Part shown: positions 1 to 15,050 of the stretch, piece after piece
Position numbering within the stretch: position 1 is the stretch's first letter
Layout of the letters: each line of letters starts with the position of its first letter
Origin: a virus
Taxonomy: Duplodnaviria; Heunggongvirae; Uroviricota; Caudoviricetes
Direction: 5' to 3' (one strand)
DNA length: 15,050 nucleotides
IMG/VR virus record: IMGVR_UViG_2713896729_000010
Location: 1-15,050 of that record
Program-made: the position numbers and the translations under genes
The notes under the pieces: generated by a model
Database searches by the model: none
Told to the model about the DNA's origin: nothing
Seen by the model: only the letters and a program-made list of their open reading frames with translations

Positions 1-482
1 TTTTTATTTCTCTTTCAGGTGAATAGATCGTTTTTACTATTTTACCCCGCACGAATCATCGTTAAAATCAGATTATAGTGTAGGAATAACTCGTTTTTTA
101 CGAGCAATTAAAGGATTTGCGCCATCAGCGGTGAGATGAGTTTTTGACGGCTGTAAGCGCTAACGGGTGACCCTAAGCCCTGATAATCATAGCTTAAGGT
201 GAGGATTTCTGAGGGATTAATTAGGAAAAGTAATAATTAATTTCTTGTCAGTCGGCGTTATTTGTTAGGACAATATTTCAAAAATAATCCAGCTTGTCGT
301 CAATAATTGCGATAAAGAGATAAATTAAAGTTAAATAATTAAATCATTAAAAAATTACGCCACAAAAATGCGAGGCGTCTTCAGGATTAGAATCGATAAA
401 ACAGAATGGGTTAAAGAGAGCGATATAATAGCGGCGGGTGCTTGAGGCTATCTGTCTCAGGCATTAGCTGAACGGCAGATAG

Positions 483-537
483 AGAAAAGCCCCGAGTGAT
501 ATTTTACTATCAACCCGAGGCCCCCTATATGCTGAAC
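483..537 (-). ncRNA. sokC: Sok-type antisense RNA (approximate placement), antitoxin of the hok/sok type I toxin-antitoxin locus
   Basis: Placed only by analogy with the known hok/sok organisation, where the antisense RNA overlaps the mok start (here 529). No promoter or terminator was verified in the sequence, and the coordinates rest on remembered E. coli K-12 positions. Confidence 0.3.
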
Positions 538-738
538 ACATGTAGAGTGCCTCTTACTGACCGTAAGGTCAAGGAGAAGAGAGCAATGAAGCAGCATAAG
601 GCGATGATTGTCGCCCTGATCGTCATCTGTATCACCGCCGTAGTGGCGGTGCTGGTAACGAGAAAAGACCTCTGTGAGGTTCACATCCGAACTGGCCAGA
701 CGGAGGTTGCTGTTTTCACGGCTTACGAATCCGAGTAA
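529..738 (+). CDS. mokC: MokC, overlapping in-frame leader ORF that regulates hokC translation
   Basis: ATG at 529 in frame with hokC and sharing its stop; translation MLNTCRVPLTDRKVKEKRAMKQHK... The track ORF 496..738 is the same frame from an upstream GTG. Confidence 0.65.
   Translation: MLNTCRVPLTDRKVKEKRAMKQHKAMIVALIVICITAVVAVLVTRKDLCEVHIRTGQTEVAVFTAYESE
586..738 (+). CDS. hokC: Hok/Gef family small membrane toxin (50 aa)
   Basis: Translation MKQHKAMIVALIVICITAVVAVLVTRKDLCEVHIRTGQTEVAVFTAYESE matches the Hok/Gef family as I recall it: single transmembrane helix followed by the conserved RKDLCEV..RTG..EVAVF..YE motif. Confidence 0.9.
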   Translation: MKQHKAMIVALIVICITAVVAVLVTRKDLCEVHIRTGQTEVAVFTAYESE

Positions 739-818
739 GAGCAACGGCGGGGAGTGATCCCATAAGCGCTAACTTAAGGGTTGTGGTATTACGCCTGATA
801 TGATTTAACGTGCCGATG

Positions 819-828: not shown

Positions 829-1839
<1,011 letters not shown>

Positions 1840-1915: not shown

Positions 1916-1970
1916 TGTGTATTGCAATGTGTATTGCAAATTGGCGATCGGGATGGGTGTGTATTGCAAA
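1916..1970 (+). repeat. Three direct copies of GTGTATTGCAA, candidate integrase arm-type binding sites
   Basis: tgtgtattgcaa (1916-1927), tgtgtattgcaaa (1928-1940), gtgtgtattgcaaa (1957-1970), between the core and the int start. The same motif recurs near attR. Confidence 0.6.
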
Positions 1971-1987: not shown

Positions 1988-3229
1988 ATGGCTATTGAAA
2001 ACAAACTCAGTGACAAACTGTTAAAGAGTCTTGTCGGAAAACGGCAGGACAAACAAAAAACAATAGCGGATGGGCGCGGGTTGTCTGTGCGTGTAAGCAT
2101 GGTTGGGGGGATCAGCTTTGTTTTTTACTATCGTCTTGGTGGCAGGGAATCCCCTCCGGTATGGCTTACACTTGGTCGCTATCCTGACATGTCTCTTGCA
2201 ACGGCCAGGCGCATGCGTGATCAGTGCCGTGAATGGCTGGCTGAAAATCTGGACCCCCGCAGGCAAATAAAACTTGCTGCCGAAAAAACTATGCAACCAG
2301 TGACCGTAAGGGATGCGCTGTTTTACTGGTACGACAATCACGCCACAACAGCCAGAAAAGAGCATGAATATTTAATAAAACGATTTGAAAAGCATATCTT
2401 CCCCTATATCGGTGATATGGCTATAGAACAGTGCAAATTACACACATGGCTTACCGTCTTTGACAGGATCAAAAAAAATGCGCCTGTTATGTCTGGTGCA
2501 ATTTTTCTTGATATCAAACAGGCGTTGCGTTTTTGTCGCGTCAGGCAATACATCGCGTGCGATCCCTTTGGAGATATTAACGTAAGTTATGTCGGGCGCT
2601 CATCCGGTATAAGGGATCGCGTTCTTAATATCAATGAAACCGCTGATGTATGGTCTTATGCTTACGGTAATAATTTGCTAACTCTGTCATCAATATATAA
2701 CCGAAGAATAATGGTTATCTGCCTGGTGTTTGGTTGCCGACAGCAGGAGGCGAGGCTATCCACCTGGGACGAATGGGATTTAAAAAACTGGGTATGGACA
2801 GTCCCAAAAGAGCACAGCAAAAACAAGGAGGCTATAGTAAGGCCTGTTCCTGACGGAATAAAACAATGGATCGTTAATCTTTACGCAGAAACAAAAAATC
2901 GCGGTTATGTTGTCGGTTGTGCTTTGCAAAGGGCGACAATAACAGGGGCTGCAAACAGAATATGCAGGCGTCTTGGTCATGATACTAATGGCTTGTGGTG
3001 CATACATGATTTCAGGCGCACATTTTCCACTACGCTTAATGATATGGGGGCGGATCCTTATATTGTCGAACTTCTTTTAGGTCATAAAGTGAAAGGGGTT
3101 GCTGGTGTTTACAATAAAAGCAGGCATATAAAGAAAAAACTTGAGGTGCTTAATATGTGGGTTAATTACCTTAATACGATAGCAGGATTTAACAACAACG
3201 TTATCGAGCTTAATAAAGAGGTGGTGTGA
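1988..3229 (+). CDS. int: Tyrosine site-specific integrase, P4-like family
   Basis: 413 aa. N-terminal arm-binding-like region (GRGLSVRVSMVGGISFVFYYRLGG...YPDMSLATARRMRDQ). C-terminal catalytic motifs CRQQEA (R), HDFRRTF (HxxR) and GVYNKS (Y nucleophile). SD gaggg 6-7 nt upstream of the ATG. Confidence 0.95.
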   Translation: MAIENKLSDKLLKSLVGKRQDKQKTIADGRGLSVRVSMVGGISFVFYYRLGGRESPPVWLTLGRYPDMSLATARRMRDQCREWLAENLDPRRQIKLAAEKTMQPVTVRDALFYWYDNHATTARKEHEYLIKRFEKHIFPYIGDMAIEQCKLHTWLTVFDRIKKNAPVMSGAIFLDIKQALRFCRVRQYIACDPFGDINVSYVGRSSGIRDRVLNINETADVWSYAYGNNLLTLSSIYNRRIMVICLVFGCRQQEARLSTWDEWDLKNWVWTVPKEHSKNKEAIVRPVPDGIKQWIVNLYAETKNRGYVVGCALQRATITGAANRICRRLGHDTNGLWCIHDFRRTFSTTLNDMGADPYIVELLLGHKVKGVAGVYNKSRHIKKKLEVLNMWVNYLNTIAGFNNNVIELNKEVV

Positions 3230-3230
3230 T

Positions 3231-3488
3231 ATGGCAATTTATTCTCTTGTTGATGAAAACGATTTGCGCACAATGAAGGACATTGATCGGTTCATTCGTG
3301 AAAAAGAGTGCATAGCACTTACCACGCTGGCAAACTCAACACGCTGGAAAATGGAGCAGGCAGGTAAATTCCCGCGACGTATCAAGATCGGTGAACGTGC
3401 TGCAGGGTATCGACTTTCAGAGGTTCAGGCATGGATCCGTGGTGAGTGGCATCCTGGATGGAAACCTGGAAAAACAAAACAGCAATAA
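3231..3488 (+). CDS. alpA: AlpA-family HTH regulator / excisionase-like protein
   Basis: 85 aa. Translation ...IALTTLANSTRWKMEQAGKFPRRIKIGERAAGYRLSEVQAWIRGEW resembles the AlpA/Vis helix-turn-helix. Start is 1 nt after the int stop, so likely translationally coupled. Confidence 0.85.
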   Translation: MAIYSLVDENDLRTMKDIDRFIREKECIALTTLANSTRWKMEQAGKFPRRIKIGERAAGYRLSEVQAWIRGEWHPGWKPGKTKQQ

Positions 3489-3544: not shown

Positions 3545-4123
3545 ATGAATAAAAATATTGCCGTGACGGGCAAGGGGTACGCTCGTCCAGTGAAAAAATT
3601 CTGCGATATTCGTGATCTCGTCGTTCTGCGCTTTGATAGTGTGAACGTTCGTGTGGTGTATCTGAACGGCGATCCGTGGTTTGTTGCAAAAGATGTTTGT
3701 GCTGCGCTGGAACTAACCAATTCGCGTACGGCGTTGCAGATGCTTGATGATGATGAAAAGGGAGTAAATTTAACTTACACCCCAGGAGGAAATCAGAATA
3801 TGAGAATTATCTCTGAGTCAGGTTTCTACAAACTAATAGCCCGCAGCCGCAAAGCAACGACGCCTGGCACATTTGCTCATCGTTTCAGTAACTGGGTATT
3901 CAGAAATGTGATACCAGGTATCAGAAAAACGGGGACTTATGGTATCCCGTGGGGTGCATTACAGGATTTTTCCCGCCGTAAAGAGCAATATCAAATAAGT
4001 GCCAGCGAGAAGGGGAGGGAGCTACAGGCATGTAAGCGCAAAAAGCGTGAGCTGGAGGAAGAAGAAAAAACGCTGATACGTGAATATCAGCCTGAGTTTT
4101 ACTTTGGTAACCGCATTCAGTGA
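3545..4123 (+). CDS. Bro-N domain protein (antirepressor-like), with a charged coiled-coil-like C-terminus
   Basis: 192 aa. N-terminal region VRVVYLNGDPWFVAKDVCAALELTNSRTALQMLDDDEKGV...RIISESGFYKLIARSRK fits the Bro-N fold as I recall it. C-terminus is K/E-rich (KRKKRELEEEEKTL). Confidence 0.75.
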   Translation: MNKNIAVTGKGYARPVKKFCDIRDLVVLRFDSVNVRVVYLNGDPWFVAKDVCAALELTNSRTALQMLDDDEKGVNLTYTPGGNQNMRIISESGFYKLIARSRKATTPGTFAHRFSNWVFRNVIPGIRKTGTYGIPWGALQDFSRRKEQYQISASEKGRELQACKRKKRELEEEEKTLIREYQPEFYFGNRIQ

Positions 4124-5758: not shown

Positions 5759-6058
5759 ATGGAAATGAAAAATTCTGGCTTTATTGCCAGCGGCCCCGCT
5801 CGACCTGAATTTATGAACGGCGATATTTACCGCGATAAATACGGCGGCACGGTAACGATTAAAGGCGTGGCAGAACGGCGCATCACTTACCGCCGTGAGG
5901 GGTATAGCTATGACTGCGTGATGCCTGTTTATCAGTTCCGGCGTGATTTTCCCCTGGTATATGCCGCACCCCGCAGTAAGCCCATCAGCAGGGAAAAAGC
6001 GTGGGGAAATATCCAGAAAATGAAAACCATGATTAACGGATTCAGAGGTAAAAAATGA
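5759..6058 (+). CDS. Hypothetical protein (99 aa), translationally coupled to the helicase gene
   Basis: SD gagga upstream. Stop overlaps the helicase start (ATGA at 6055-6058). Confidence 0.6.
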   Translation: MEMKNSGFIASGPARPEFMNGDIYRDKYGGTVTIKGVAERRITYRREGYSYDCVMPVYQFRRDFPLVYAAPRSKPISREKAWGNIQKMKTMINGFRGKK

Positions 6059-7809
6059 AACTGGCACCGAACGTAAAACAGCAGTCACGCGGCATAAAAC
6101 ACAAAGGAACAGAAGTCATTATTTTTGCGGGTAGTGATGCCTGGGCACACGCGAAACAATGGCAGGAACATGATGCGCGTATGGCCGGAGATAATGAGCC
6201 TCCTGTGTGGCTTGGGGAGCAGCAGCTATCCGAACTGGATAATCTGCAAATTGTGCCGGAAGGCCGAAAATCAGCACGCATATACAGGGCCGGATATCTT
6301 GCGCCTGTAATGATAAAGGCGATTGGTCAGAAGCTGGCGGCAGCAGGCGTACAGGATGCAAATTTTTATCCTGAGGGTATGCACGGCCAGGAGGTGCAGA
6401 ACTGGCGCGAATATCTGGCCCGTGAACGCCAGAATCTTTCTGATGGTCTGGTCATTGAGCTTCCGGTAAAGCAAAAGGCGCAACTTTCGCAGATGGCGGA
6501 CAGTGAGCGCGCGCAGTTGCTTGCCGATCGCTTTGATGGCGTTTGCGTACATCCTGAAAGTGAAATCGTTCACGTATGGCGCGGCGGGGTATGGTGTCCG
6601 GTCAGCACAATGGAACTTAGCCGCGAAATGGTGGCGATCTATTCAGAGCACAGGGCCACTTTCAGCAAGCGCGTAATCAATAACGCCGTGGAAGCGTTAA
6701 AAGTTATTGCCGAACCAATGGGCGAGCCGTCTGGCGATTTGCTGCCGTTCGCCAATGGTGCGCTTGACCTGAAAACGGGGGAATTTTCCCCGCACACGCC
6801 GGAGAACTGGATCACCACGCACAACGGCATTGAGTACACGCCACCAGCACCAGGGGAGAACATCCGCGATAACGCGCCAAACTTTCATAAATGGCTTGAG
6901 CACGCAGCCGGAAAAGACCCGCGCAAGATGATGCGTATATGTGCCGCGCTGTACATGATTATGGCGAACCGGTACGACTGGCAGATGTTTATTGAGGCCA
7001 CCGGAGACGGCGGGAGCGGTAAAAGTACATTCACACACATAGCCAGCCTTCTGGCAGGGAAACAGAACACGGTAAGCGCTGAAATGACATCGCTTGATGA
7101 TGCTGGTGGACGTGCGCAGGTTGTCGGGAGTCGTCTTATCGTCCTGGCTGACCAGCCGAAATATACAGGCGAAGGAACGGGCATCAAGAAAATCACAGGC
7201 GGCGACCCCGTGGAAATTAACCCGAAATATGAAAAGCGTTTCACGGCGGTAATCAGGGCGGTGGTGCTGGCGACCAACAACAACCCGATGATATTCACCG
7301 AACGGGCCGGAGGTGTGGCACGTCGTCGCGTGATTTTCCGTTTCGACAATATCGTCAGTGAGGCCGAAAAAGACAGGGAGCTACCGGAAAAGATTGCGGC
7401 TGAAATCCCCGTTATTATCCGCCGATTGCTGGCGAACTTTACCGACCCTGAGAAGGCACGGGCTTTACTACTGGAACAGCGTGACGGTGATGAAGCACTG
7501 GCAATAAAGCAACAGACGGATCCGGTTATTGAGTTTTGCCAGTTCCTGAATTTTCTGGAGGAAGCGCGCGGCCTGATGATGGGTGGCGGTGGTGATTCAG
7601 TGAAGTACACGACCAGGAACAGCCTTTACCGCGTCTATCTGGCGTTTATGGCATACGCGGGCAGGAGCAAACCGCTAAACGTGGCTGAGTTCAGCAAGGC
7701 CATGAAGCCAGCGGCGAAAGTTTACGGGCATGAATATATTACGCGAAAAGTTAAGGGAGTAACGCAGACCAACGCAATTACAACAGACGATTGCGACGCG
7801 TTTTTATAA
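6055..7809 (+). CDS. Replication initiator / SF3 helicase (D5_N-like domain plus NTPase, resembling the P4 alpha C-terminal half); no clear primase motif seen in the N-terminus
   Basis: 584 aa. Walker A GDGGSGKST and Walker B-like LIVLADQ. The conserved region before the NTPase resembles the D5_N / P4-family C-terminal domain. Iteron origin immediately downstream. Confidence 0.88.
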   Translation: MKLAPNVKQQSRGIKHKGTEVIIFAGSDAWAHAKQWQEHDARMAGDNEPPVWLGEQQLSELDNLQIVPEGRKSARIYRAGYLAPVMIKAIGQKLAAAGVQDANFYPEGMHGQEVQNWREYLARERQNLSDGLVIELPVKQKAQLSQMADSERAQLLADRFDGVCVHPESEIVHVWRGGVWCPVSTMELSREMVAIYSEHRATFSKRVINNAVEALKVIAEPMGEPSGDLLPFANGALDLKTGEFSPHTPENWITTHNGIEYTPPAPGENIRDNAPNFHKWLEHAAGKDPRKMMRICAALYMIMANRYDWQMFIEATGDGGSGKSTFTHIASLLAGKQNTVSAEMTSLDDAGGRAQVVGSRLIVLADQPKYTGEGTGIKKITGGDPVEINPKYEKRFTAVIRAVVLATNNNPMIFTERAGGVARRRVIFRFDNIVSEAEKDRELPEKIAAEIPVIIRRLLANFTDPEKARALLLEQRDGDEALAIKQQTDPVIEFCQFLNFLEEARGLMMGGGGDSVKYTTRNSLYRVYLAFMAYAGRSKPLNVAEFSKAMKPAAKVYGHEYITRKVKGVTQTNAITTDDCDAFL

Positions 7810-7824
7810 TTTTTTGTAAAAGCC

Positions 7825-8042
7825 ATCTACCCCATCTACCTGAACAAAATAAACGCATATTATTCAACATGATAAGTGGGTATAGGGCTAGGTAGAAGGC
7901 TAATAAAAGCTCTCTACCTCTTCTACCTGATTTTATCAGTTTCAGGTAGCAGGGTAGACGGCAGGTAGAGGAGTCAAAAAGCTATCTACCCGCTGAAAGC
8001 CGCGCCATTACTGACATGATGAGCATTCGGGTAGATGGGTAG
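7825..8042. repeat. Iteron-type replication origin: at least 11 copies of GGTAG / CTACC arranged as inverted clusters
   Basis: ccatctaccccatctacc (7823-7840); ggtag at 7891, 7945, 7953, 7964, 8030, 8038; ctacc at 7914, 7923, 7986. Terminal clusters are mutual reverse complements (catctacc / ggtagatg). Lies directly after the initiator gene. Confidence 0.8.
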
Positions 8043-8157
8043 AGGGGGGGAGGCACAACTAAAAACTTTTTAAACGAGGGGGGGGTGAAAATAAATGCGC
8101 ATACATAAAAATCACTTAATAAACATGCCAGCCGAAAACATGAATCAGGGGCGACAA

Positions 8158-8409
8158 ATGACCAAAATTCGCAGAGACAGAACACAGGCAAAATATAAAG
8201 CGTTAGACATGACAGAGCTTTCCTTAAAGGTGGCAATCAAAGCGATAGACCACCACACACGGGCAGGATACGCGAAGGAACATCCCGACCTGATAAGCGC
8301 ATTCATGACCACAGCAGCGGCAAACTTTGCCACGCTGACAGAACGGGAGATTGCCGAAGCGGAACAGGTGACAACCATCAATGTTAAAACCGGAGAGCAG
8401 ACAGCATGA
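8158..8409 (+). CDS. Hypothetical protein (84 aa; start uncertain, alternative starts at 8139 or 8095)
   Basis: SD agggg 6 nt before ATG 8158. Stop overlaps the SSB-like gene start (ATGA at 8406). Confidence 0.55.
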   Translation: MTKIRRDRTQAKYKALDMTELSLKVAIKAIDHHTRAGYAKEHPDLISAFMTTAAANFATLTEREIAEAEQVTTINVKTGEQTA

Positions 8410-8855
8410 CAGCACAGATAGCGGCTTACGGGCGGCTGGTGGCTGACCCGCAGTTAAAGACCACCAGCAAAGGGACACAAATGGCGATGGCGAGTATGGC
8501 GGTTCCCCTGCCGTGCAGCCAGGCAGATGACGGAACGGCGACGATGTGGTTATCCGTCCTGGCGTTTGGCAGACAGGCCGACGCACTGGCAAAACACCAC
8601 AAAGGCGAACTGGTGAGCGTGGCGGGTAACATGCAGGTAAGCCAGTGGACAGGCCAGAACGGCGAAACGCGGCGGGGCTGGCAGGTTATCGCAGACAGCG
8701 TAATCAGTGCGCGAACGGCGCGACCGGGCGGCAAAAAAGGCCAACAGGGGCAGGCTACTGACGAACTGAACAGAGCAAAACAACAGGCAGATCAGCAAGG
8801 AAGCCAGCCACCAGTGGGAGATAATGAGCAATGGGGAGATGATATCCCGTTTTAA
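8406..8855 (+). CDS. ssb: Single-stranded DNA-binding protein homologue with SSB-like acidic C-terminal tip
   Basis: 149 aa. OB-fold-like N-terminus (GRLVADPQLKTTSKGTQMAMASMAV...WLSVLAFGRQADALAKHHKGELVSVAGNMQVSQW), Gly/Gln-rich linker, and C-terminus ...WGDDIPF resembling the DDDIPF tip of bacterial SSB. Confidence 0.8.
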   Translation: MTAQIAAYGRLVADPQLKTTSKGTQMAMASMAVPLPCSQADDGTATMWLSVLAFGRQADALAKHHKGELVSVAGNMQVSQWTGQNGETRRGWQVIADSVISARTARPGGKKGQQGQATDELNRAKQQADQQGSQPPVGDNEQWGDDIPF

Positions 8856-8873
8856 ATATTGCCAATAAAAAAG

Positions 8874-8897
8874 GCCGGAAAAAATAAATTTTCCGGC
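8874..8897 (+). other. Perfect hairpin between the replication and capsid modules
   Basis: GCCGGAAAA-aataaa-TTTTCCGGC, 9-bp stem. No T-run after it, so not a canonical terminator on the plus strand. Confidence 0.5.
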
Positions 8898-9071
8898 ATG
8901 CTACATAAATCCCGACCAAAGGGAGTGAAGATATTAACACTAATTGTCCGCACTGAAGTTGTCACCCCAAAACTTTATACAACATTGCACTCGGTTGCAT
9001 GTGTTCGCATGACAAATATCGGTGGTAGCATATATCCACAATTATTTTTAATGAATGCAAAGAGGATGCGT

Positions 9072-10112
9072 ATGGTTGATTTATATTCGCCTACTCAGCT
9101 TGTACAGGTGGTTAATGCTGTAGATGTACAAAAACAACTAAATGCGTTGTTTACCAGTTTGTTTTTTACTCGCTCGGTAATGTTTGAATCGCGCGATATT
9201 ATTCTTGATACAATCGACGATCCAAATATCCCAATTGCAGCGTTTTGTTCTCCTATGGTGGGTAGTAAAGTTTCACGTGACGAAGGGTACGAATCAAAAA
9301 CAATTCGTCCAGGCTATATGAAGCCGAAAAGCAGCATTGATCCAAATAAGTTAGCTGTGCGCCCTGCTGGTGTATCACCTGAGCAATACAATGCTTTTGG
9401 GGCACGTAATATTAAAGTTAAACAGGCGATTGTAAATCAGGCTAAAGCTATTCGTGCACGTATTGAATGGCTTGCTGTTCAGGCAATCACAACGGGGAAA
9501 AATATCATTGAGGGCGATGGTATTGAACGTTATGAGCTGGACTGGAATATAAAACCACAAAATATCATCACTCAGTCTGGCGGTACTGAGTGGTCAGGTA
9601 AGGATAAAGAAACTTTTGATCCAAATGATGATATTGAGAGCTACGCAGAATTTAGTGAGGGCGTCACTAATATCATCATTATGGGTGGTAATGTATGGAA
9701 GAAATACCGTTCATTCAGAGCGATAAAAGAGGCTTTGGATACCCGTCGTGGTTCTAATTCCGAACTGGAAACGGCCCTTAAAGACCTTGGTGATTCGGTG
9801 AGTTTTAAAGGGTATATGGGCGATGTTGCGATTGTTGTTTACAGCGGGCGTTATACCGACGAGGACGGAACAGAAAAACATTTCCTTGATCCTGATTTGA
9901 TGGTGCTTGGCAATACGGCTCTTCAGGGGATTGTCGCCTATGGCGGTATTCAGGATCCGGAGCTAATCCGAATGGGGCTGACTAAAGCCGAACTTGCACC
10001 GAAAAACTATATTGTGCCTGGTGATCCGGCTATTGAATATGTGCAGACACATTCAGCACCACAGCCAATACCGGCCCGCATCAATCGTTTTGTTACCGTT
10101 CGCATTGGCTAA
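9072..10112 (+). CDS. Major capsid protein, homologue of lambda gpE
   Basis: 346 aa from ATG 9072 (SD aagagg 8 nt upstream). Collinear similarity to lambda E as I recall it: N-terminus MVDLYSPTQL versus MSMYTTAQL; NIITQSGGTEWSGKDKETFDPNDDIESYA versus NITQSGGTEWSKRDKSTYDPTDDIEAYA; LDTRRGSNSELETALKDLG...GDVAIVVYSG nearly identical. The track ORF starts at an upstream TTG (8859), which I reject. Confidence 0.9.
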   Translation: MVDLYSPTQLVQVVNAVDVQKQLNALFTSLFFTRSVMFESRDIILDTIDDPNIPIAAFCSPMVGSKVSRDEGYESKTIRPGYMKPKSSIDPNKLAVRPAGVSPEQYNAFGARNIKVKQAIVNQAKAIRARIEWLAVQAITTGKNIIEGDGIERYELDWNIKPQNIITQSGGTEWSGKDKETFDPNDDIESYAEFSEGVTNIIIMGGNVWKKYRSFRAIKEALDTRRGSNSELETALKDLGDSVSFKGYMGDVAIVVYSGRYTDEDGTEKHFLDPDLMVLGNTALQGIVAYGGIQDPELIRMGLTKAELAPKNYIVPGDPAIEYVQTHSAPQPIPARINRFVTVRIG

Positions 10113-10121
10113 GGGGGAGCA

Positions 10122-10463
10122 ATGGCTACTCATTACACTGAACTCATGGCTGGCACTGAAGCACTGGTGACTACGCTGGGGATATTTTCAGCTAATAAAG
10201 GGGTAATTCCTGCATTTACGCCACTGATGCAGGAAGATGCAACAGGTGCACTGGTGGTATGGGATGGTTCGAGCGTAGGTAAAGCGGTTTATGTTTCCGC
10301 TGTACAAATCGACACAGCGAAAAAAACACAGGCACAGGTTTATAAGACAGGTGTTTTAAATGTTGATGCTCTGAACTGGCCTGAGTCTGTAAAAGAACTG
10401 TCGGCAAAGGTTGCCGCGTTTGTTGGCTCAGGTATTTCTGTTCAGCCGCTGGCTCGTGTGTAA
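10122..10463 (+). CDS. Head decoration protein, homologue of lambda gpD
   Basis: 113 aa, SD gggggag. Similar to lambda D as I recall it: TPLM..D....LVVWDG...YK.G......WPE......AF.G..IS. Confidence 0.85.
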   Translation: MATHYTELMAGTEALVTTLGIFSANKGVIPAFTPLMQEDATGALVVWDGSSVGKAVYVSAVQIDTAKKTQAQVYKTGVLNVDALNWPESVKELSAKVAAFVGSGISVQPLARV

Positions 10464-10474
10464 AGGGGGATACA

Positions 10475-10858
10475 ATGCAGAATCATTACAATGACCTTAA
10501 GCCAATTGCCGAAATGATGTATCCGGATCCAGCAGTAGAGGAATTAAAGGCTATTGCTGACAAAATGCGTTTAAGTGAACGCCTTGTTGATATGAATCAG
10601 GTGATGGAACTTACTACCCTTAGCCGTCGCACATTGCTAAACCTTGAGGCTAGTGGAGAGTTCCCGGAGCGTGTGCAGGTTACGGAAGGGCGTAAGGCCT
10701 GGTATTTAAGTGAAGTGATCGACTGGATAAACAATATTCCTCGATCTTCTGAATATTGCCGCGTACCTGTCCCAAAAAAGCCAGATGCGGCGCTATGCCT
10801 CAAGATTGAGCGTGTACGTCGCAATGCACGGGATGGTCGCTATAAGTTGATTGGTTGA
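10475..10858 (+). CDS. Second AlpA-family HTH protein (127 aa, with an N-terminal extension), immediately upstream of cos
   Basis: SD aaggggga. Translation ...MELTTLSRRTLLNLEASGEFPERVQVTEGRKAWYLSEVIDWIN is an AlpA-like helix-turn-helix. Confidence 0.7.
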   Translation: MQNHYNDLKPIAEMMYPDPAVEELKAIADKMRLSERLVDMNQVMELTTLSRRTLLNLEASGEFPERVQVTEGRKAWYLSEVIDWINNIPRSSEYCRVPVPKKPDAALCLKIERVRRNARDGRYKLIG

Positions 10859-10884
10859 TGAAATTAGGGCCCGTTCTGGCTGGC

Positions 10885-10948
10885 GGGTCCTTTCCGGCGA
10901 TCCGGTAGGCTACGGGGCGGCGACCTCGCGGGTTTTCGCTATTTATGA
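10885..10948 (+). other. cos site: lambda-type cosN (12-nt cohesive-end sequence GGGCGGCGACCT at 10915-10926) with lambda-like flanks
   Basis: gggtcctttccggcgatccggtaggctacg|GGGCGGCGACCT|cgcgggttttcgctatttatga agrees almost base for base with the lambda cos junction as I recall it. Sequence downstream (10949-11059), where cosB would be, is unlike lambda. Confidence 0.85.
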
Positions 10949-11059
10949 GCCTTTTTCGGGTGCTGGTGGTGGTTTTGTTGTTCGCTCTATCTCTATGAAT
11001 AAAAAGGAAAAGATAAAGCCAATACACCAACCTGAAACATTACTTAAGTGGGGATATTG

Positions 11060-11530
11060 ATGAAATCGCACCTGATGAACAAAAAAAACATGGCGCAAAG
11101 CTGCCGTGTAAGTGCGACAGCGTTCGACAAGTGGGGAGTGACTCCCGTTGAACGTAAAGGCCGCGAGGCGTTTTATGATGTTGCCAGCGTAATAGACAAT
11201 CGGGTTAGCAATGCAATTAACCAGATTACAGACGACAAAGGCGAGATTGATGATGATGAACTCCTACGAGTCAGGATCAGATTGCTGACAGCACAGGCAG
11301 AGGCGCAGGAGCTTAAAAACGAGCGCGAACGCGGCGACGTTATTGATACAGCGTTTTGTATATACGTGCTTTCAAAATTGGCGAGTCAGATTTCTTCAAT
11401 CATGGACAGCCTGCCGCTTGCCATGACAAGGAAGTTTCCCGACATGAAGCCGTCTATGCTGGATGGACTGAAAAAGAAGTTATCAGAGCCTGTAACGCAT
11501 GCGCAAAACTTGACGAAAACATACCGCTGA
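11060..11530 (+). CDS. Terminase small subunit, homologue of lambda Nu1; the C-terminal Nu1-like segment continues in the -1 frame to 11601
   Basis: N-terminal ..NKKNMAQSCRVSATAFDKWGV aligns with the Nu1 N-terminus (NKKQLADIFGASIRTIQNWQEQG). Central block LTAQAEAQELKNERERGDVIDTAFCIYVLSKLASQISSIMDSLPLAMTRKFP is nearly collinear with Nu1 (LTRAQADAQELKNARDSAEVVETAFCTFVLSRIAGEIASILDGLPLSVQRRFP). Start could also be 11075 or 11090. Confidence 0.85.
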   Translation: MKSHLMNKKNMAQSCRVSATAFDKWGVTPVERKGREAFYDVASVIDNRVSNAINQITDDKGEIDDDELLRVRIRLLTAQAEAQELKNERERGDVIDTAFCIYVLSKLASQISSIMDSLPLAMTRKFPDMKPSMLDGLKKKLSEPVTHAQNLTKTYR

Positions 11531-11612
11531 TGCTGTCCGATTATCTGATGGAAACTGCCGGAAACGTACCGGATAAGTTGCAGCCGAATAAAGATAAGTA
11601 ACGTAGTACGCT

Positions 11613-11894
11613 ATGACTGAATCCGAAATACTGCGATTAATCCGCCGTGCTTGTGGAATCAGCAAGCAGCATGACGAACAGGCCACGCAGCCGGACAGCG
11701 TGACCGCAGATAATTATGTGCGTGTAGTGGCTGAGGTGATGCGCCGTGACGGTATTGAGCTTAACGGCGTGGATATGCGCAACATACGAACAAGAGTCCT
11801 TGAGTTGCTGGCATATCGTCGCCGTTCTCAACAACGGAGGGAGAGCGCGAAAAATACTTACCAGTGGAAGAAGCCGGAACGATTGCGGCGGTAA
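11613..11894 (+). CDS. Hypothetical basic protein (93 aa) downstream of the small terminase gene
   Basis: ORF with Arg-rich C-terminus (RRRSQQRRESAKNTYQWKKPERLRR). Weak SD and no recognisable family. Confidence 0.45.
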   Translation: MTESEILRLIRRACGISKQHDEQATQPDSVTADNYVRVVAEVMRRDGIELNGVDMRNIRTRVLELLAYRRRSQQRRESAKNTYQWKKPERLRR

Positions 11895-12146
11895 CTTGCT
11901 GATATTCCCGATAACGCAAAATTGCGCTGGCTGACTTGTTGCATTGCAAAAAGTTAAGCAGGAAGGCACGGCCTGTAAGATGGGATGCAGTAAGTAGTTC
12001 AAGGCTACCTTGTGCTGGCACGCACAGTTAAGCCGTCGGTGCTGGATATCCCCCACTGGGGGAAAAGCTGGCTACATCCCTCACATCTGAGGACTGATAA
12101 CGCGACATTGCGCTGGCTGGCAAAGTGCAAAATTGCACGATGGCCT

Positions 12147-12608: not shown

Positions 12609-12630
12609 GTGTATTGCAGTGTGTATTGCG
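12609..12630 (+). repeat. Two further direct copies of the GTGTATTGC(A/G) arm-type motif near attR
   Basis: gtgtattgca (12609-12618) and gtgtattgcg (12621-12630), about 75-95 bp from the right core, same orientation as the three copies near attL. Confidence 0.6.
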
Positions 12631-12703: not shown

Positions 12704-12716
12704 AAGGCGATGTATG
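12704..12716. repeat. attR core (right copy of the 13-bp direct repeat)
   Basis: AAGGCGATGTATG; phage-identical sequence continues rightward (gtatgccgccaccattgag). Confidence 0.8.
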
Positions 12717-12933
12717 CCGCCACCATTGAGAGTGAGCTGGATACGCAGTCAGCGATGGATTTTATTCTGGGCGCGAACAGTCAGGAGCAGCGGGAAAGGC
12801 TGACCGGCTGGATTGGTGAAATTGCCGCGTATTACGCCGCAGCGCCGGTCCGGCTGGGAGGCGCAAAAGTACCGCACCTGATGCCGGGGGACTCACTGAA
12901 CCTGCAGACGGCTCAGGACACGGATAACGGCTA
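12704..12933 (+). CDS. B: lambda-type portal protein B, continuation after the island (truncated at the N10 gap)
   Basis: In frame from the core: KAMYAATIESELDTQSAMDFILGANSQEQRERLTGWIGEIAAYYAAAPVRLGGAKVPHLMPGDSLNLQTAQDTDNG, matching the region of lambda B that follows ...QSAIVKA. Confidence 0.9.
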
Positions 12934-12943
12934 NNNNNNNNNN
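12934..12943. other. N10 run, assembly gap or contig join
   Basis: Ten N; flanks are portal gene versus a glutamate decarboxylase fragment. Confidence 0.9.
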
Positions 12944-13063
12944 ATCGGCCTGGAATTTATCCAGCGCATCGTGCAGCGGTTGTGGGAACTCATAGTTACC
13001 AGTGTAGGTCACGCCGAAAGTCGGCACCACGCCGATGGTGTTTTCGTCACAGGCTTCAATCAT
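12944..13063 (-). CDS. Internal 40-codon fragment of glutamate decarboxylase (GadA/GadB-like), isolated between two N10 runs
   Basis: Minus-strand translation [40 protein letters not shown] matches an internal segment of E. coli Gad as I recall it. Confidence 0.6.
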
Positions 13064-13073
13064 NNNNNNNNNN
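13064..13073. other. N10 run, assembly gap or contig join
   Basis: Ten N. Confidence 0.9.
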
Positions 13074-13673
<600 letters not shown>

Positions 13674-13683
13674 NNNNNNNNNN
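13674..13683. other. N10 run, assembly gap or contig join
   Basis: Ten N; the J frame does not continue across it. Confidence 0.9.
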
Positions 13684-15050
13684 ATAACGCGTCCGCAGTG
13701 GCACAGAACACGGCAGCCGCAAAGAAGTCAGCCAGCGATGCCGGCACATCTGCCCGTGAGGCGGCAACCCATGCAACCGATGCTGCAGGCTCAGCACGTG
13801 CCGCCAGCACGTCAGCCGGACAGGCTGCATCATCTGCTCAGTCAGCATCTTCCAGCGCAGGAACGGCATCAACAAAGGCCACTGAAGCATTAAAAAGTGC
13901 TGCCGCTGCAGAGTCCTCAAAAAGCGCGGCAGCCACCAGTGCCGGTGCGGCGAAAACGTCAGAAACGAATGCCGCAGCATCACAACTATCAGCAGCCACT
14001 TCTGCATCCACCGCGACCACGAAGGCGTCAGAAGCTGCCACCTCAGCCCGGGATGCGGCGGCCTCAAAAGAGGCAGCGAAATCATCAGAAACGAACGCAT
14101 CATCAAGTGCCAGTAGTGCAGCTTCCTCGGCAACGGCGGCAGGAAATTCCGCGAAGGCCGCAAAAACGTCTGAGACGAATGCGGATAACAGCGCACAGGC
14201 GGCAGCAGACTCACAAACTGCATCGGCAAACTCCGCGACAGCCGCCAAAAAATCAGAAACCAACGCGAAAAATAGCGAGGCAGCAGCAAAGAGCAGCGAA
14301 ACAAACGCTAAAGCCAGCGAAACTAATGCTAAATCCAGTGAAACAAACGCGGCGAAATCTGCGGCGGACGCACTTAATTATCGCAACCATGCTCAGGGTA
14401 TTGTTGGTGCTAACATCGGTTTGGGATCATCACCGCGCAATTGTCCTGATATTTCCGGTGATCCATCCGGTTATATTGGCTTTATGCGCATTTTTGCTTC
14501 CGCAACAGGTTTTCCGTCTATTGCATCAGGCGAAGGTAATCTTACTGGTTTTATTAGTCAGGTAGATGGAACACCAGCGTATACAGGTGTATTTCAGGGA
14601 TGGACTACTCGCTCGCTTTATACCTATCGCTGGAGTCCGACAATAGGCCCGCAATGGACACGCCACGCTCGCAAAAATGAAGTGGACCGTCTTGACCAAT
14701 TGAATAGCGAAACATGGTTATATAACCATGATAAATCCATGCGCCTGGGTTTAACCGCCTCATCATGGGGTTGTTACAGCGATACACAAAAAAAATGGAT
14801 ACCGCTTGATGTTTCTCATGGTGGCACTGGCGCGGCAACTATTGATGGTGCCAGAACTAATCTTGGATTAGGCAGGGATAACAGCCCTCAGCTTAATAGT
14901 CTATTTCTCGATAGGACTAGTGATTCTACTGGCGCATACACTACTGGCGGGATGCTCCATACGAGACTGTTAGCAAATGATAACACTGTGCGCCTTGCCG
15001 CTGATATGTATGTTCAGACTTTTCCAAATGAGCAAGGTCGATTAACAATA
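13684..15050 (+). CDS. stf: Side tail fiber protein (lambda Stf family), partial at both ends, with an Ala/Ser-rich SETNA repeat region
   Basis: Open frame (codons from 13686) with no stop to the window end. Repeats AKTSETNAAAS, AKSSETNASSS, AKTSETNADNS, KKSETNAKNS, KSSETNAKASETNAKSSETNAAKS, then a globular region (..NYRNHAQGIVGANIGLGSSPRNCPDISGDPSGYIGF...). Not in the track because it lacks a start and stop inside the window. Confidence 0.85.

What the first reader, a model, noticed from the sequence alone, without database searches (positions are those of the whole stretch)
10475..10858. A second, longer AlpA-like regulator sits directly upstream of cos and the small terminase gene
Seen in sequence: the island has two AlpA-family HTH proteins, one coupled to int (3231..3488) and a 127-aa paralogue with a ~40-residue N-terminal extension at the end of the capsid module. 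In known Gram-negative PICIs AlpA acts as the island activator; a dedicated late-module paralogue could control the packaging genes or act on helper promoters.
Basis: partly seen in the sequence, partly recalled or inferred. Interest (0 to 1): 0.5.

Follow-up and report, generated by a model that had tools for sequence, protein, structure and literature searches.

The report
Satellite late-operon AlpA-like regulator
A phage satellite embedded in a lambda-like prophage carries a second, longer AlpA-type DNA-binding protein at the end of its capsid operon, and it most likely switches on that operon by binding an array of short repeats at the operon's own promoter.

Summary
ORF 10475-10858 (127 aa) is a real gene under purifying selection. 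It has a Pfam Phage_AlpA winged-helix core (residues 36-85) and is 33% identical to the int-linked AlpA (3231-3488). It ends 56 bp before the cosN nick, and a Nu1-like terS follows.

New findings:
- The island is a helper-embedded PICI inside a lambdoid portal gene.
- The gene has no match in the phage collection and always lies in the block mcp-gpD-alpA2-cos.
- That block travels with unrelated integrases, primases, cosB types and downstream genes. This argues against an excisionase role or a cosB/TerS-specific role.
- A unique array of direct hexamers at 10-bp spacing (TTATAC/TTGCAC/TTGCAT/TCGCAT, 8975-9010) lies 15 nt upstream of an extended -10 (9023-9031) in front of mcp.
- The array is present in 88 of 89 alpA2 loci. 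It is absent elsewhere in those loci, in the helper prophage, and in the CFT073-type cassette that lacks alpA2.
- The hexamer sequence changes in the lineages where the recognition helix changes.

Best reading (about 0.5): alpA2 is an auto-activating regulator of the satellite late operon. I found no sign that it targets helper promoters. It is a new variant of a known regulator family, and nothing here has been tested experimentally.

The parts
10475..10858 (+). alpA2: 127-aa AlpA-family winged-helix protein. N-extension 1-34, wHTH 35-90, linker, conserved basic C-terminal helix about 105-119.
   Evidence: Pfam PF05930 E=1.1e-8. phrog_2790 E=2e-48. PDB 8c3t GIsul2 excisionase E=7e-10 by sequence and best Foldseek hit. 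AF2 model has pLDDT about 90 in the core. Conservation. dN/dS.
8975..9010 (+). Array of four direct hexamer repeats at 10-bp period (TTATAC, TTGCAC, TTGCAT, TCGCAT); proposed AlpA2 operator.
   Evidence: It is the only 3x hexamer array at 10-bp period in the 15-kb window, and 0 of 2000 shuffles reproduce it. It lies 50-120 nt upstream of mcp in 88 of 89 alpA2 loci, with no other hit in 772 kb. It is absent from the helper prophage and from cassettes lacking alpA2. The hexamer sequence varies together with the AlpA2 helix.
9023..9031 (+). Extended -10-like element TGgTAGCAT of the proposed late promoter. No good -35; the third or fourth repeat occupies that position.
   Evidence: The sequence is conserved as TGnTA(G/A/C)(C/A)AT across genera, 15 or 25 nt after the last repeat, so on the same helical face. 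The consensus promoter scan did not call it. The assignment is inferred.
8874..8897 (.). Perfect 9-bp-stem hairpin after ssb that separates the replication module from the late module.
   Evidence: I11.
9072..10112 (+). Major capsid protein (lambda gpE family), first gene of the late operon.
   Evidence: Pfam Phage_cap_E E=2e-41. PGAP start in an identical genome. RBS AAGAGG at 9060-9065.
10122..10463 (+). Head decoration protein (lambda gpD family).
   Evidence: Pfam HDPD E=4e-15.
10885..10926 (+). cos core: cosQ-like GGGTCCT (10885-10891) and cosN GGGCGGCGACCT (10915-10926).
   Evidence: About 91% identity to lambdoid phages over 10883-10960 only. Alignment with the helper cos. cosN search. 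Element names are from my own knowledge of lambda.
10927..11059 (+). Satellite-specific cosB-like region (GGTGCTGGTGGTGGTTTTGTTGTT...). It is shared only by satellites that encode the Nu1-like TerS.
   Evidence: Alignment A3.
11060..11601 (+). Nu1-like small terminase gene. It is frameshifted in this window by loss of one A at 11471-11475.
   Evidence: Pfam Phage_Nu1 E=1e-21 on the C-terminal half. phrog_57. Intact 180-aa annotation in L001. Indel located.
11613..11894 (+). Conserved 93-aa ORF of unknown function (phrog_1561), last gene of the island.
3231..3488 (+). alpA1: canonical int-coupled AlpA (85 aa), presumed master activator or recombination directionality factor (RDF) of the island.
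   Evidence: Pfam E=5e-14. Its position 1 nt after int. Role by analogy to EcCICFT073 AlpA (PMC6092414).

Best explanation
alpA2 encodes a satellite-specific, monomeric Xis/AlpA/BldC-type winged-helix DNA-binding protein. It is the dedicated regulator of a portable late cassette with the order: repeat array + promoter, mcp, gpD, alpA2, cos. I propose that several AlpA2 molecules bind head-to-tail to the 3-5 direct hexamers spaced one helical turn apart (8975-9010). These lie immediately upstream of, and overlap, the missing -35 of an extended -10 promoter (9023-9031). From there AlpA2 would activate transcription of mcp-gpD-alpA2, with read-through across cos into terS and orf93. Because alpA2 sits inside the operon, this gives positive feedback. 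The first molecules would come from read-through of the upstream early operon or of helper late transcription. Shown here: family membership, fold, conservation, synteny, the existence and uniqueness of the repeat array, and its co-occurrence and co-variation with the gene. Inferred: that AlpA2 is the protein that binds the array, that the element is a promoter, and that the effect is activation.
For: 1. AlpA-family wHTH: Pfam and the closest solved structure, the 8c3t excisionase. The other top fold matches are RdfS and BldC. To my knowledge these proteins bind direct repeats as head-to-tail oligomers.
2. Recognition helix and wing are nearly invariant across genera.
3. The gene is always in the block mcp-gpD-alpA2-cos, in 92 of 92 loci with enough sequence. 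This includes the most distant members at about 50% identity.
4. The integrase (25-53% identity or a different family), AlpA1, primase/helicase type and downstream genes all vary.
5. The repeat array is unique in the window, present 50-120 nt upstream of mcp in 88 of 89 loci, and absent elsewhere in 772 kb.
6. It is absent from CFT073-type cassettes that have mcp-gpD but no alpA2.
7. The distance from the array to the -10 is 15 or 25 nt, so helical phase is kept.
8. Hexamers change where the protein changes:
- TTGCAY with helix SRRTLLNLE
- TTGTAC with the R52G variant
- TTATAC with SRRTLLDME and wing GRTAWLLSEI
- TTAGAC/TTGTGC with SRQTILDME
9. AlpA1 helices differ between loci that keep the same array, and the true ori iterons are elsewhere, at 7817-8046.
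10. A hairpin after ssb suggests that the late module needs its own promoter.
Against: There is no experimental evidence of binding or of a transcription start. The generic promoter scan did not call the proposed promoter. The co-variation rests on about five sequence classes, and many of the 89 loci are near-identical E. coli copies (30 distinct upstream sequences). The array and the gene are physically linked in one cassette, so co-occurrence could reflect linkage rather than interaction. An activator encoded inside its own target operon needs an unexplained trigger. The hexamers overlap the -35 position in the E. coli class, which is also compatible with auto-repression. TTGC-N6-TTGC is, to my knowledge, also the lambda CII recognition motif.
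Confidence: 0.5

Rival explanations
1. Auto-repressor: AlpA2 binds the same hexamer array but limits, rather than activates, late-operon transcription. It would be a homeostatic brake on capsid gene expression.
For: In the E. coli class the last hexamer occupies the -35 position, with 15 nt to the -10. The gene is encoded inside its own target operon.
Against: In several genera the whole array sits 10 bp further upstream, about -43 to -78, where it would not occlude RNA polymerase, and helical phase is preserved. The promoter lacks a -35 and looks activator-dependent.
Confidence: 0.12
2. Second recombination directionality factor: AlpA2 is an excisionase for the satellite, or a stand-in excisionase for the helper prophage, as reported for alpA_1 of EcCIMP1.
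For: The closest solved relatives are excisionases, 8c3t and RdfS. PHROG annotation reads 'excisionase and transcriptional regulator'. EcCIMP1 carries two AlpA-family genes, and the second supports helper excision (PMC11773190).
Against: alpA2 stays 77-85% identical while the integrase is 25-37% identical or of another family and the att site differs (portal gene, cspD/clpS, tRNA-Pro, fis). It has no similarity to the helper Xis. The att-arm doubled motif TGTATTGCA follows the Int/AlpA1 clade, not alpA2. The hexamer array is not at the att sites. EcCIMP1 alpA_1 is on the opposite strand at the island end, which is a different arrangement.
Confidence: 0.1
3. Packaging accessory: AlpA2 binds or bends DNA at cos (the cosQ side or cosB), or partners with terminase, to favour satellite packaging. 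This would be analogous to Rpp or to the Nu1 DNA-binding domain.
For: It is always the last gene before cos, with its stop codon 26 nt from cosQ. It has the same MerR-like wHTH fold as TerS and Rpp DNA-binding domains, and TerS N-domain entries 7lwr/7lxs appear among the fold hits (PMC6739421).
Against: The HTH is invariant while cosB is satellite-type, helper-type (L007) or belongs to a different cosN type (L009, L099), and terS may be absent. No hexamer array lies near cos. There is no sequence similarity to RppA/RppC or Nu1. The CFT073-type cassette packages without it (PMC6092414, PMC6739421).
Confidence: 0.1
4. The array is read by something else, and AlpA2 acts in trans on the helper or the host. 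The alternative reader could be helper CII (TTGC-N6-TTGC), AlpA1 or a host factor. AlpA2 would then regulate helper or host promoters, including interference with the helper.
For: TTGCAC-N4-TTGCAT contains TTGC-N6-TTGC (the CII motif is from my own knowledge).
Against: The helper of an identical satellite has no lambda-type cII; a YdaT-like gene sits in that position. The divergent classes (TTATAC, TTAGAC/TTGTGC) lose the TTGC motif. AlpA1 varies while the array does not. No array is found in about 36 kb of helper sequence.
Confidence: 0.08

Closest known systems
Canonical Gram-negative PICI AlpA (EcCICFT073 AlpA; Pfam Phage_AlpA PF05930)
   Same: Same Pfam family and wHTH fold, and 33% identity to the island's own copy. 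The EcCICFT073 protein is an activator that stimulates its own promoter (PMC6092414), which is the logic I propose here.
   Different: AlpA2 is not int-linked. It sits at the end of the capsid operon, carries N- and C-terminal extensions that are conserved only in this narrow clade, and is inherited with mcp-gpD rather than with int.
Xis/RDF-type wHTH proteins and BldC (GIsul2 excisionase 8c3t, RdfS 8dgl, BldC 6ama)
   Same: These are the best structural matches. To my knowledge they are small monomeric MerR-like wHTH proteins that oligomerise head-to-tail on direct repeats, which matches a 10-bp-phased direct-repeat array.
   Different: No link to an integrase or att site. The extra terminal helices are absent from these proteins.
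EcCIMP1 alpA_1 (second AlpA-family gene of a PICI; PMC11773190)
   Same: It is a precedent for two AlpA-family genes with diverged roles in one PICI, and the second copy lies at the far end of the island.
   Different: alpA_1 is on the opposite strand, resembles the helper Xis and acts as a back-up helper excisionase. alpA2 is co-oriented within a capsid operon and is unrelated to the helper Xis.
P4 delta (activator in the sid-delta-psu late operon)
   Same: Analogy only, from my own knowledge: a satellite late operon that combines capsid-related genes with its own transcription activator.
   Different: It is an unrelated protein family (Ogr/Delta zinc finger), and delta also activates helper late promoters. 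I found no sign of helper targets here.
Rpp (RppA/RppC) and lambda Nu1 DNA-binding domain
   Same: MerR-like wHTH next to a PICI cos site (PMC6739421).
   Different: No sequence similarity. Rpp lies after cos, has its wHTH at the N-terminus and a coiled-coil dimerisation domain. alpA2 presence is independent of the terS/rpp choice.

Membership tests
Pfam Phage_AlpA (PF05930) / AlpA-family wHTH | Significant match to the family profile above the curated cut-off | tested here: met
   35.3 bits against a cut-off of 21, E=1.1e-8, residues 36-85 covering profile positions 2-51 of 51.
Pfam Phage_AlpA (PF05930) / AlpA-family wHTH | MerR/excisionase-like winged helix-turn-helix fold | tested here: met
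   The AF2 core has pLDDT about 90 with H-H-strand-strand-H topology. Foldseek match to 8c3t has rmsd 0.9 A, TM(target) 0.85 and 42% identity.
PICI master activator AlpA (EcCICFT073 type) | Located directly downstream of, or next to, int and inherited with it | tested here: not met
   That position is held by ORF 3231-3488. alpA2 lies about 7 kb away and travels with mcp-gpD, not int.
PICI master activator AlpA (EcCICFT073 type) | Required for island induction, and activates its own promoter | not testable with these tools
   This needs genetics or reporters. Only a candidate autoregulatory site was found.
Recombination directionality factor (excisionase) | Co-inheritance and co-variation with a cognate integrase and att site | tested here: not met
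   The same alpA2 (77-85% identity) occurs with integrases of 25-37% identity at different att sites. The att-arm motif follows Int/AlpA1 only.
Recombination directionality factor (excisionase) | Stimulates excisive recombination | not testable with these tools
Rpp (redirecting phage packaging) | Homology to RppA/B/C, with an N-terminal wHTH and a C-terminal coiled-coil dimeriser | tested here: not met
   No PDB hit to RppC at E<=1, whereas CFT073 RppA hits 6hlk at 5e-31. The wHTH here is central, not N-terminal.
Small terminase (lambda Nu1 family) | Match to the Phage_Nu1 profile and TerL-binding C-terminal domain | tested here: not met
   alpA2 has no Nu1 hit. The neighbouring ORF 11060-11601 does.
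Q-like antiterminator 'AlpA' of Pseudomonas aeruginosa | Eight-helix Q-like fold with a C-terminal HTH and an N-terminal ring that enters the RNA exit channel | tested here: not met
   By its published description it is a different architecture (PMC9371919). Apart from 8c3t, the sequence search of PDB chains returned only a methyltransferase at E=0.89. The shared name is coincidental.
Helper-embedded PICI (HE-PICI; Tommasini, Mageeney, Williams 2023) | [quoted passage not shown] | tested here: met
   The portal gene is split at 958-1839 and 12710 onward. In complete genomes the island lies between the portal halves, flanked by the terminase and head/tail genes of the prophage. Zone order is shown. 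The doubled att-arm motif is present.

The most novel reading that the evidence does not exclude
alpA2 together with its hexamer array forms a self-contained, portable transcriptional switch. It makes the satellite's capsid/decoration/packaging cassette an autonomous 'late regulon', independent of both the island's master AlpA and helper Q-dependent late control. The cassette (operator, promoter, mcp, gpD, regulator, cos) is exchanged as one unit among PICIs that have unrelated integration and replication modules. The clade-specific C-terminal helix would be the RNA-polymerase or oligomerisation contact of a new AlpA subfamily.
Probability: 0.3. Interest if true: 0.55.

Novelty: new variant of a known kind. 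Interest (0 to 1): 0.42.

Why it matters
Gram-negative PICIs are currently described as having one regulator, AlpA, next to int. The published HE-PICI survey files all Phage_AlpA hits under 'integration', and the EcCIMP1 paper states that typical E. coli PICIs encode only one. About 7% of complete E. coli genomes, and many other Enterobacterales, carry this second, architecturally distinct AlpA inside the capsid operon. If it drives a separate late promoter, satellite capsid and terminase genes are under their own timed control rather than riding passively on early or helper transcription. That bears on why these satellites keep capsid genes whose function is still unknown. The prediction is directly testable: one protein, one 36-bp operator and one promoter. 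The repeat/helix co-variation also offers a small natural specificity series for AlpA/Xis-type wHTH-DNA recognition.

Tried and rejected
1. Rpp identity: rejected. There is no similarity to RppC structures, and true RppA in CFT073 lies after cos.
2. Positional homologue in EcCICFT073: the slot between gpD and cos there holds an unrelated 137-aa protein. That protein resembles the C-terminal (Nu3/scaffold) part of the head protease. The published c1501::tetA and overexpression data therefore say nothing about alpA2.
3. Phage origin: tblastn against 50,697 phage records found nothing.
4. Antiterminator like P. aeruginosa AlpA: a different fold.
5. The repeats as replication iterons: rejected. 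The real iteron field is at 7817-8046, and the repeats persist with unrelated initiators.
6. AlpA1 as the binder: unlikely, because AlpA1 helices vary while the array is constant.
7. Helper CII: unlikely.
8. Helper Xis similarity: none.
9. Helper promoter targets: no array in the helper.
10. NCBIfam gave no named family.
11. The afdb50 fold library was unavailable.
12. The genome-contig scan returned only 4 loci. Diversity came from the protein search and the contig look-ups.
13. The generic sigma-70 scan did not call the proposed promoter, nor any + strand promoter in 8300-12100.

Full report
CONTEXT. The window is a draft scaffold with N-runs at 819-828, 12934-12943, 13064-13073 and 13674-13683. 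Between 1988 and about 12700 it holds a 10.7-kb PICI-type satellite with these genes:
- int (1988-3229)
- alpA1 (3231-3488)
- Bro-N protein (3545-4123)
- primase (6055-7809)
- SSB (8406-8855)
- lambda-E-like capsid protein (9072-10112)
- gpD-like decoration protein (10122-10463)
- the 127-aa ORF of the finding (10475-10858)
- cos
- Nu1-like terS (11060-11601)
- a 93-aa ORF (11613-11894)

The satellite interrupts a lambda-like portal gene, whose 5' part is at 958-1839 and whose 3' part starts at 12710. In complete genomes with 99.6-99.9% identical copies, it sits between the two portal halves of an icd-integrated lambdoid prophage and is co-oriented with the late operon. This is the 'helper-embedded PICI' configuration of Tommasini, Mageeney and Williams (10.1101/2022.07.18.500453; PMC10111431).

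The ORF matches Pfam Phage_AlpA above threshold over residues 36-85. It matches phrog_2790 and the solved GIsul2 excisionase 8c3t. It is 33% identical to alpA1 over the HTH.
- It has a strong Shine-Dalgarno sequence and starts 12 nt after gpD.
- There are 99 homologues, almost all exactly 127 aa, in Escherichia, Enterobacter, Citrobacter, Klebsiella, Salmonella, Pluralibacter, Kosakonia, Kluyvera, Cedecea, Buttiauxella and others.
- dN/dS is about 0.1, and the HTH is the most constrained part.
- 408 of 5426 complete E. coli genomes carry it.
- The AF2 model (pLDDT 74 overall, about 90 in the core) has two N-terminal helices of low to moderate confidence, a canonical wHTH, a proline-rich linker and a C-terminal basic helix at 105-119.
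- A profile search of 1.84 billion representatives finds the full-length architecture only in this narrow clade. All other relatives match only the HTH core.
- The signature WINNIP...L.LK.ER in the C-terminal part is conserved even in the most distant members.

cos follows immediately. The cosQ-like GGGTCCT is at 10885-10891 and cosN GGGCGGCGACCT at 10915-10926. Only 10883-10960 resembles lambdoid phages. alpA2 is therefore the last gene of the packaged linear genome and terS the first.

WHAT IT IS NOT.
- Not Rpp. There is no similarity to RppC structures. In EcCICFT073, RppA lies after cos (PMC6739421).
- Not phage-derived. tblastn against 50,697 phage records found no match.
- Unlikely to be a recombination directionality factor. 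The same protein (77-85% identity) accompanies integrases of 25-37% identity at other att sites: cspD/clpS, tRNA-Pro, fis, and other prophage late genes. It does not resemble the helper Xis. The doubled att-arm motif TGTATTGCA follows the Int/AlpA1 clade, not alpA2.
- Not tied to a packaging specificity. It occurs with satellite-type cosB plus terS, with helper-type cosB and no terS (Kluyvera, L007), with a TIR-like cargo gene downstream (Cedecea, L009), and with a different cosN type.
- Not related to the P. aeruginosa 'AlpA' antiterminator, which is a Q-like protein of different architecture.

WHAT TRAVELS WITH IT. In every locus with enough sequence (92 of 92) the order is mcp-gpD-alpA2, with 8-12-nt gene spacers. 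This includes the most divergent members at about 50% identity. In E. coli, this mcp-gpD lineage covers at least 80% of the query in 395 genomes, against 366 for alpA2. A second E. coli cassette, the EcCICFT073 type, has a 68-aa ORF, a 66%-identical mcp-gpD, and a 137-aa protein in the alpA2 slot. It is combined with either rppA or the same Nu1-like terS. That 137-aa protein is unrelated to alpA2 and resembles the Nu3/scaffold end of the head protease. The slot gene therefore follows the capsid lineage and its upstream region, not terS or rpp.

THE CANDIDATE OPERATOR. Aligning the 130-170 nt upstream of mcp across genera reveals four direct hexamers at exactly 10-bp spacing:
- TTATAC (8975)
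- TTGCAC (8985)
- TTGCAT (8995)
- TCGCAT (9005)

Fifteen nt further on lies TGgTAGCAT (9023-9031, an extended -10), and then the mcp ribosome-binding site and start codon.
- This is the only 3x hexamer array at 10-bp period in the 15-kb window, and 0 of 2000 shuffles reproduce it.
- Across 89 alpA2 loci, 88 have the array 50-120 nt upstream of mcp, with no other occurrence in 772 kb on either strand. These loci give only 30 distinct upstream sequences, so the count overstates independence.
- It is absent from the helper prophage (about 36 kb scanned) and from all three CFT073-type cassettes.
- The gap between the last good hexamer and the -10 is 15 nt in some lineages and 25 nt in others, so helical phase is preserved. 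That is expected for an activator contacting RNA polymerase.
- The hexamers change where the protein changes:
  - TTGCAY with SRRTLLNLE / GRKAWYLSEV
  - TTGTAC with the R52G variant
  - TTATAC with SRRTLLDME / GRTAWLLSEI
  - TTAGAC x2, TTGGGT and TTGTGC x2 with SRQTILDME / GRYGWRLTDI
- The int-linked AlpA1 recognition helices differ between loci that keep the same array.
- Replication initiators vary from D5-type primase to DUF927 to RepA-like helicase. The real iteron field is at 7817-8046. Neither AlpA1 nor Rep is therefore a good candidate reader.
- A perfect hairpin after ssb (8874-8897) separates the late module from upstream transcription.
- The best structural relatives are excisionases and BldC. 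To my knowledge these are the wHTH proteins that bind phased direct repeats as head-to-tail oligomers.

MECHANISM PROPOSED. AlpA2 binds the array cooperatively and activates a -35-less, extended -10 promoter, with a start expected near 9038. This drives mcp-gpD-alpA2. Because no + strand terminator or promoter is predicted between 10582 and 12100, transcription would continue across cos into terS and orf93 in the integrated, circular or concatemeric form. Positive feedback would be primed by read-through from the AlpA1-dependent early operon or, in the embedded configuration, from Q-modified helper late transcription. These steps are inferred. An auto-repressor reading, an excisionase role, a cos-accessory role and a trans role on the helper remain possible at lower probability (see the rival explanations).

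COMPARISON WITH THE LITERATURE. The HE-PICI survey places all Phage_AlpA/HTH_17 hits in the 'integration' category and does not describe a late-zone copy. The founding PICI papers describe one AlpA per E. coli PICI, an activator of its own promoter. EcCIMP1 is the one reported PICI with two AlpA-family genes. Its second copy is a divergently oriented, Xis-like back-up excisionase for the helper, which is a different arrangement from the one here. RefSeq already annotates alpA2 as 'AlpA family / helix-turn-helix transcriptional regulator'. Family membership is therefore known. The new points, all computational, are the distinct subfamily architecture, the strict cassette linkage and the candidate operator.

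VERDICT. alpA2 is a late-module regulator, probably of its own operon's promoter. I found no evidence for helper targets or for a terS-specific role. It is a new variant of a known kind and of moderate interest.

Noticed in passing
window 958-1839 and 12710-12933; L001, L002: The whole satellite is inserted in, and co-oriented with, the portal gene (lambda B cognate) of an icd-integrated lambdoid prophage. This makes it a helper-embedded PICI. The window itself is a scaffold with four 10-N gaps, and it jumps from the portal 3' part to a lambda-J-like tail fibre fragment (12982-13893).
   Followed up: yes
window 11471-11475: terS carries a 1-bp deletion in an A-run (A5 against A6 in a 99.9% identical genome). 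This splits the 180-aa Nu1-like TerS into ORFs 11048-11530 and 11356-11601. It is either a homopolymer sequencing error or a real inactivation.
   Followed up: partly
window 7817-8046: A dense field of about 12 TCTACC-type iterons in both orientations lies directly downstream of the primase gene. It is probably the satellite replication origin.
   Followed up: partly
window 1918-1968 and 12610-12630: A doubled motif TGTATTGCA-N3-TGTATTGCA lies upstream of int and near attR. It matches the attP arm motif described for the HE-PICI integrase clade. It is present only in loci with that Int/AlpA1 clade (window, L006, L009, L011). Its ATTGCA core resembles the TTGCAY hexamers of the late promoter, which may hint at related specificities of the two AlpA paralogues.
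   Followed up: partly
L005 9995-10185 (NZ_CP054665.1): A complete lambdoid prophage carries a frameshifted remnant of the 3' half of alpA2 (88% nucleotide identity) immediately upstream of its own cos and terS. This suggests satellite-to-helper recombination through the shared cosQ-cosN segment. About 10% of E. coli genomes with a hit have only partial copies.
   Followed up: no
L010 2084-2497 (EcCICFT073, presumably c1501); L097, L098: In the CFT073-type cassette the slot between gpD and cos holds a 137-aa protein annotated as hypothetical. It matches the C-terminal region of head maturation proteases (phrog_53, E=1e-8), so it may be a Nu3-like scaffold. This is the gene in which the tetA marker was placed in published EcCICFT073 work.
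   Followed up: partly
window 11060-11400 versus 11400-11601; alignment A3: The satellite TerS matches Nu1 only in its C-terminal (TerL-binding) half. The N-terminal DNA-binding part and the cosB region (GGTGCTGGTGGTGGTTTTGTTGTT) are satellite-specific and co-occur. This is an alternative to Rpp for redirecting helper terminase.
   Followed up: partly
L009 10678-11826 (- strand); L007 10660-11259: In Cedecea, a 382-aa protein with a TIR-like N-terminus lies just after alpA2/cos. It is likely defence cargo. In Kluyvera, the satellite ends right after a helper-type cos and abuts a lambda gpI-like tail gene.
   Followed up: no
window 8933-8947 / 9038-9052 and 9032-9040: A 15-nt inverted repeat (87% complementary) brackets the proposed late promoter. 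A DnaA-box-like ATATCCACA sits at the predicted transcription start. It is conserved only in the E. coli class.
   Followed up: no
window 436-744: A hok/sok-type toxin-antitoxin locus lies on the left flank, before the first N gap. Rfam sok scores 122 bits, and there is a Hok-like ORF at 496-738.
   Followed up: no
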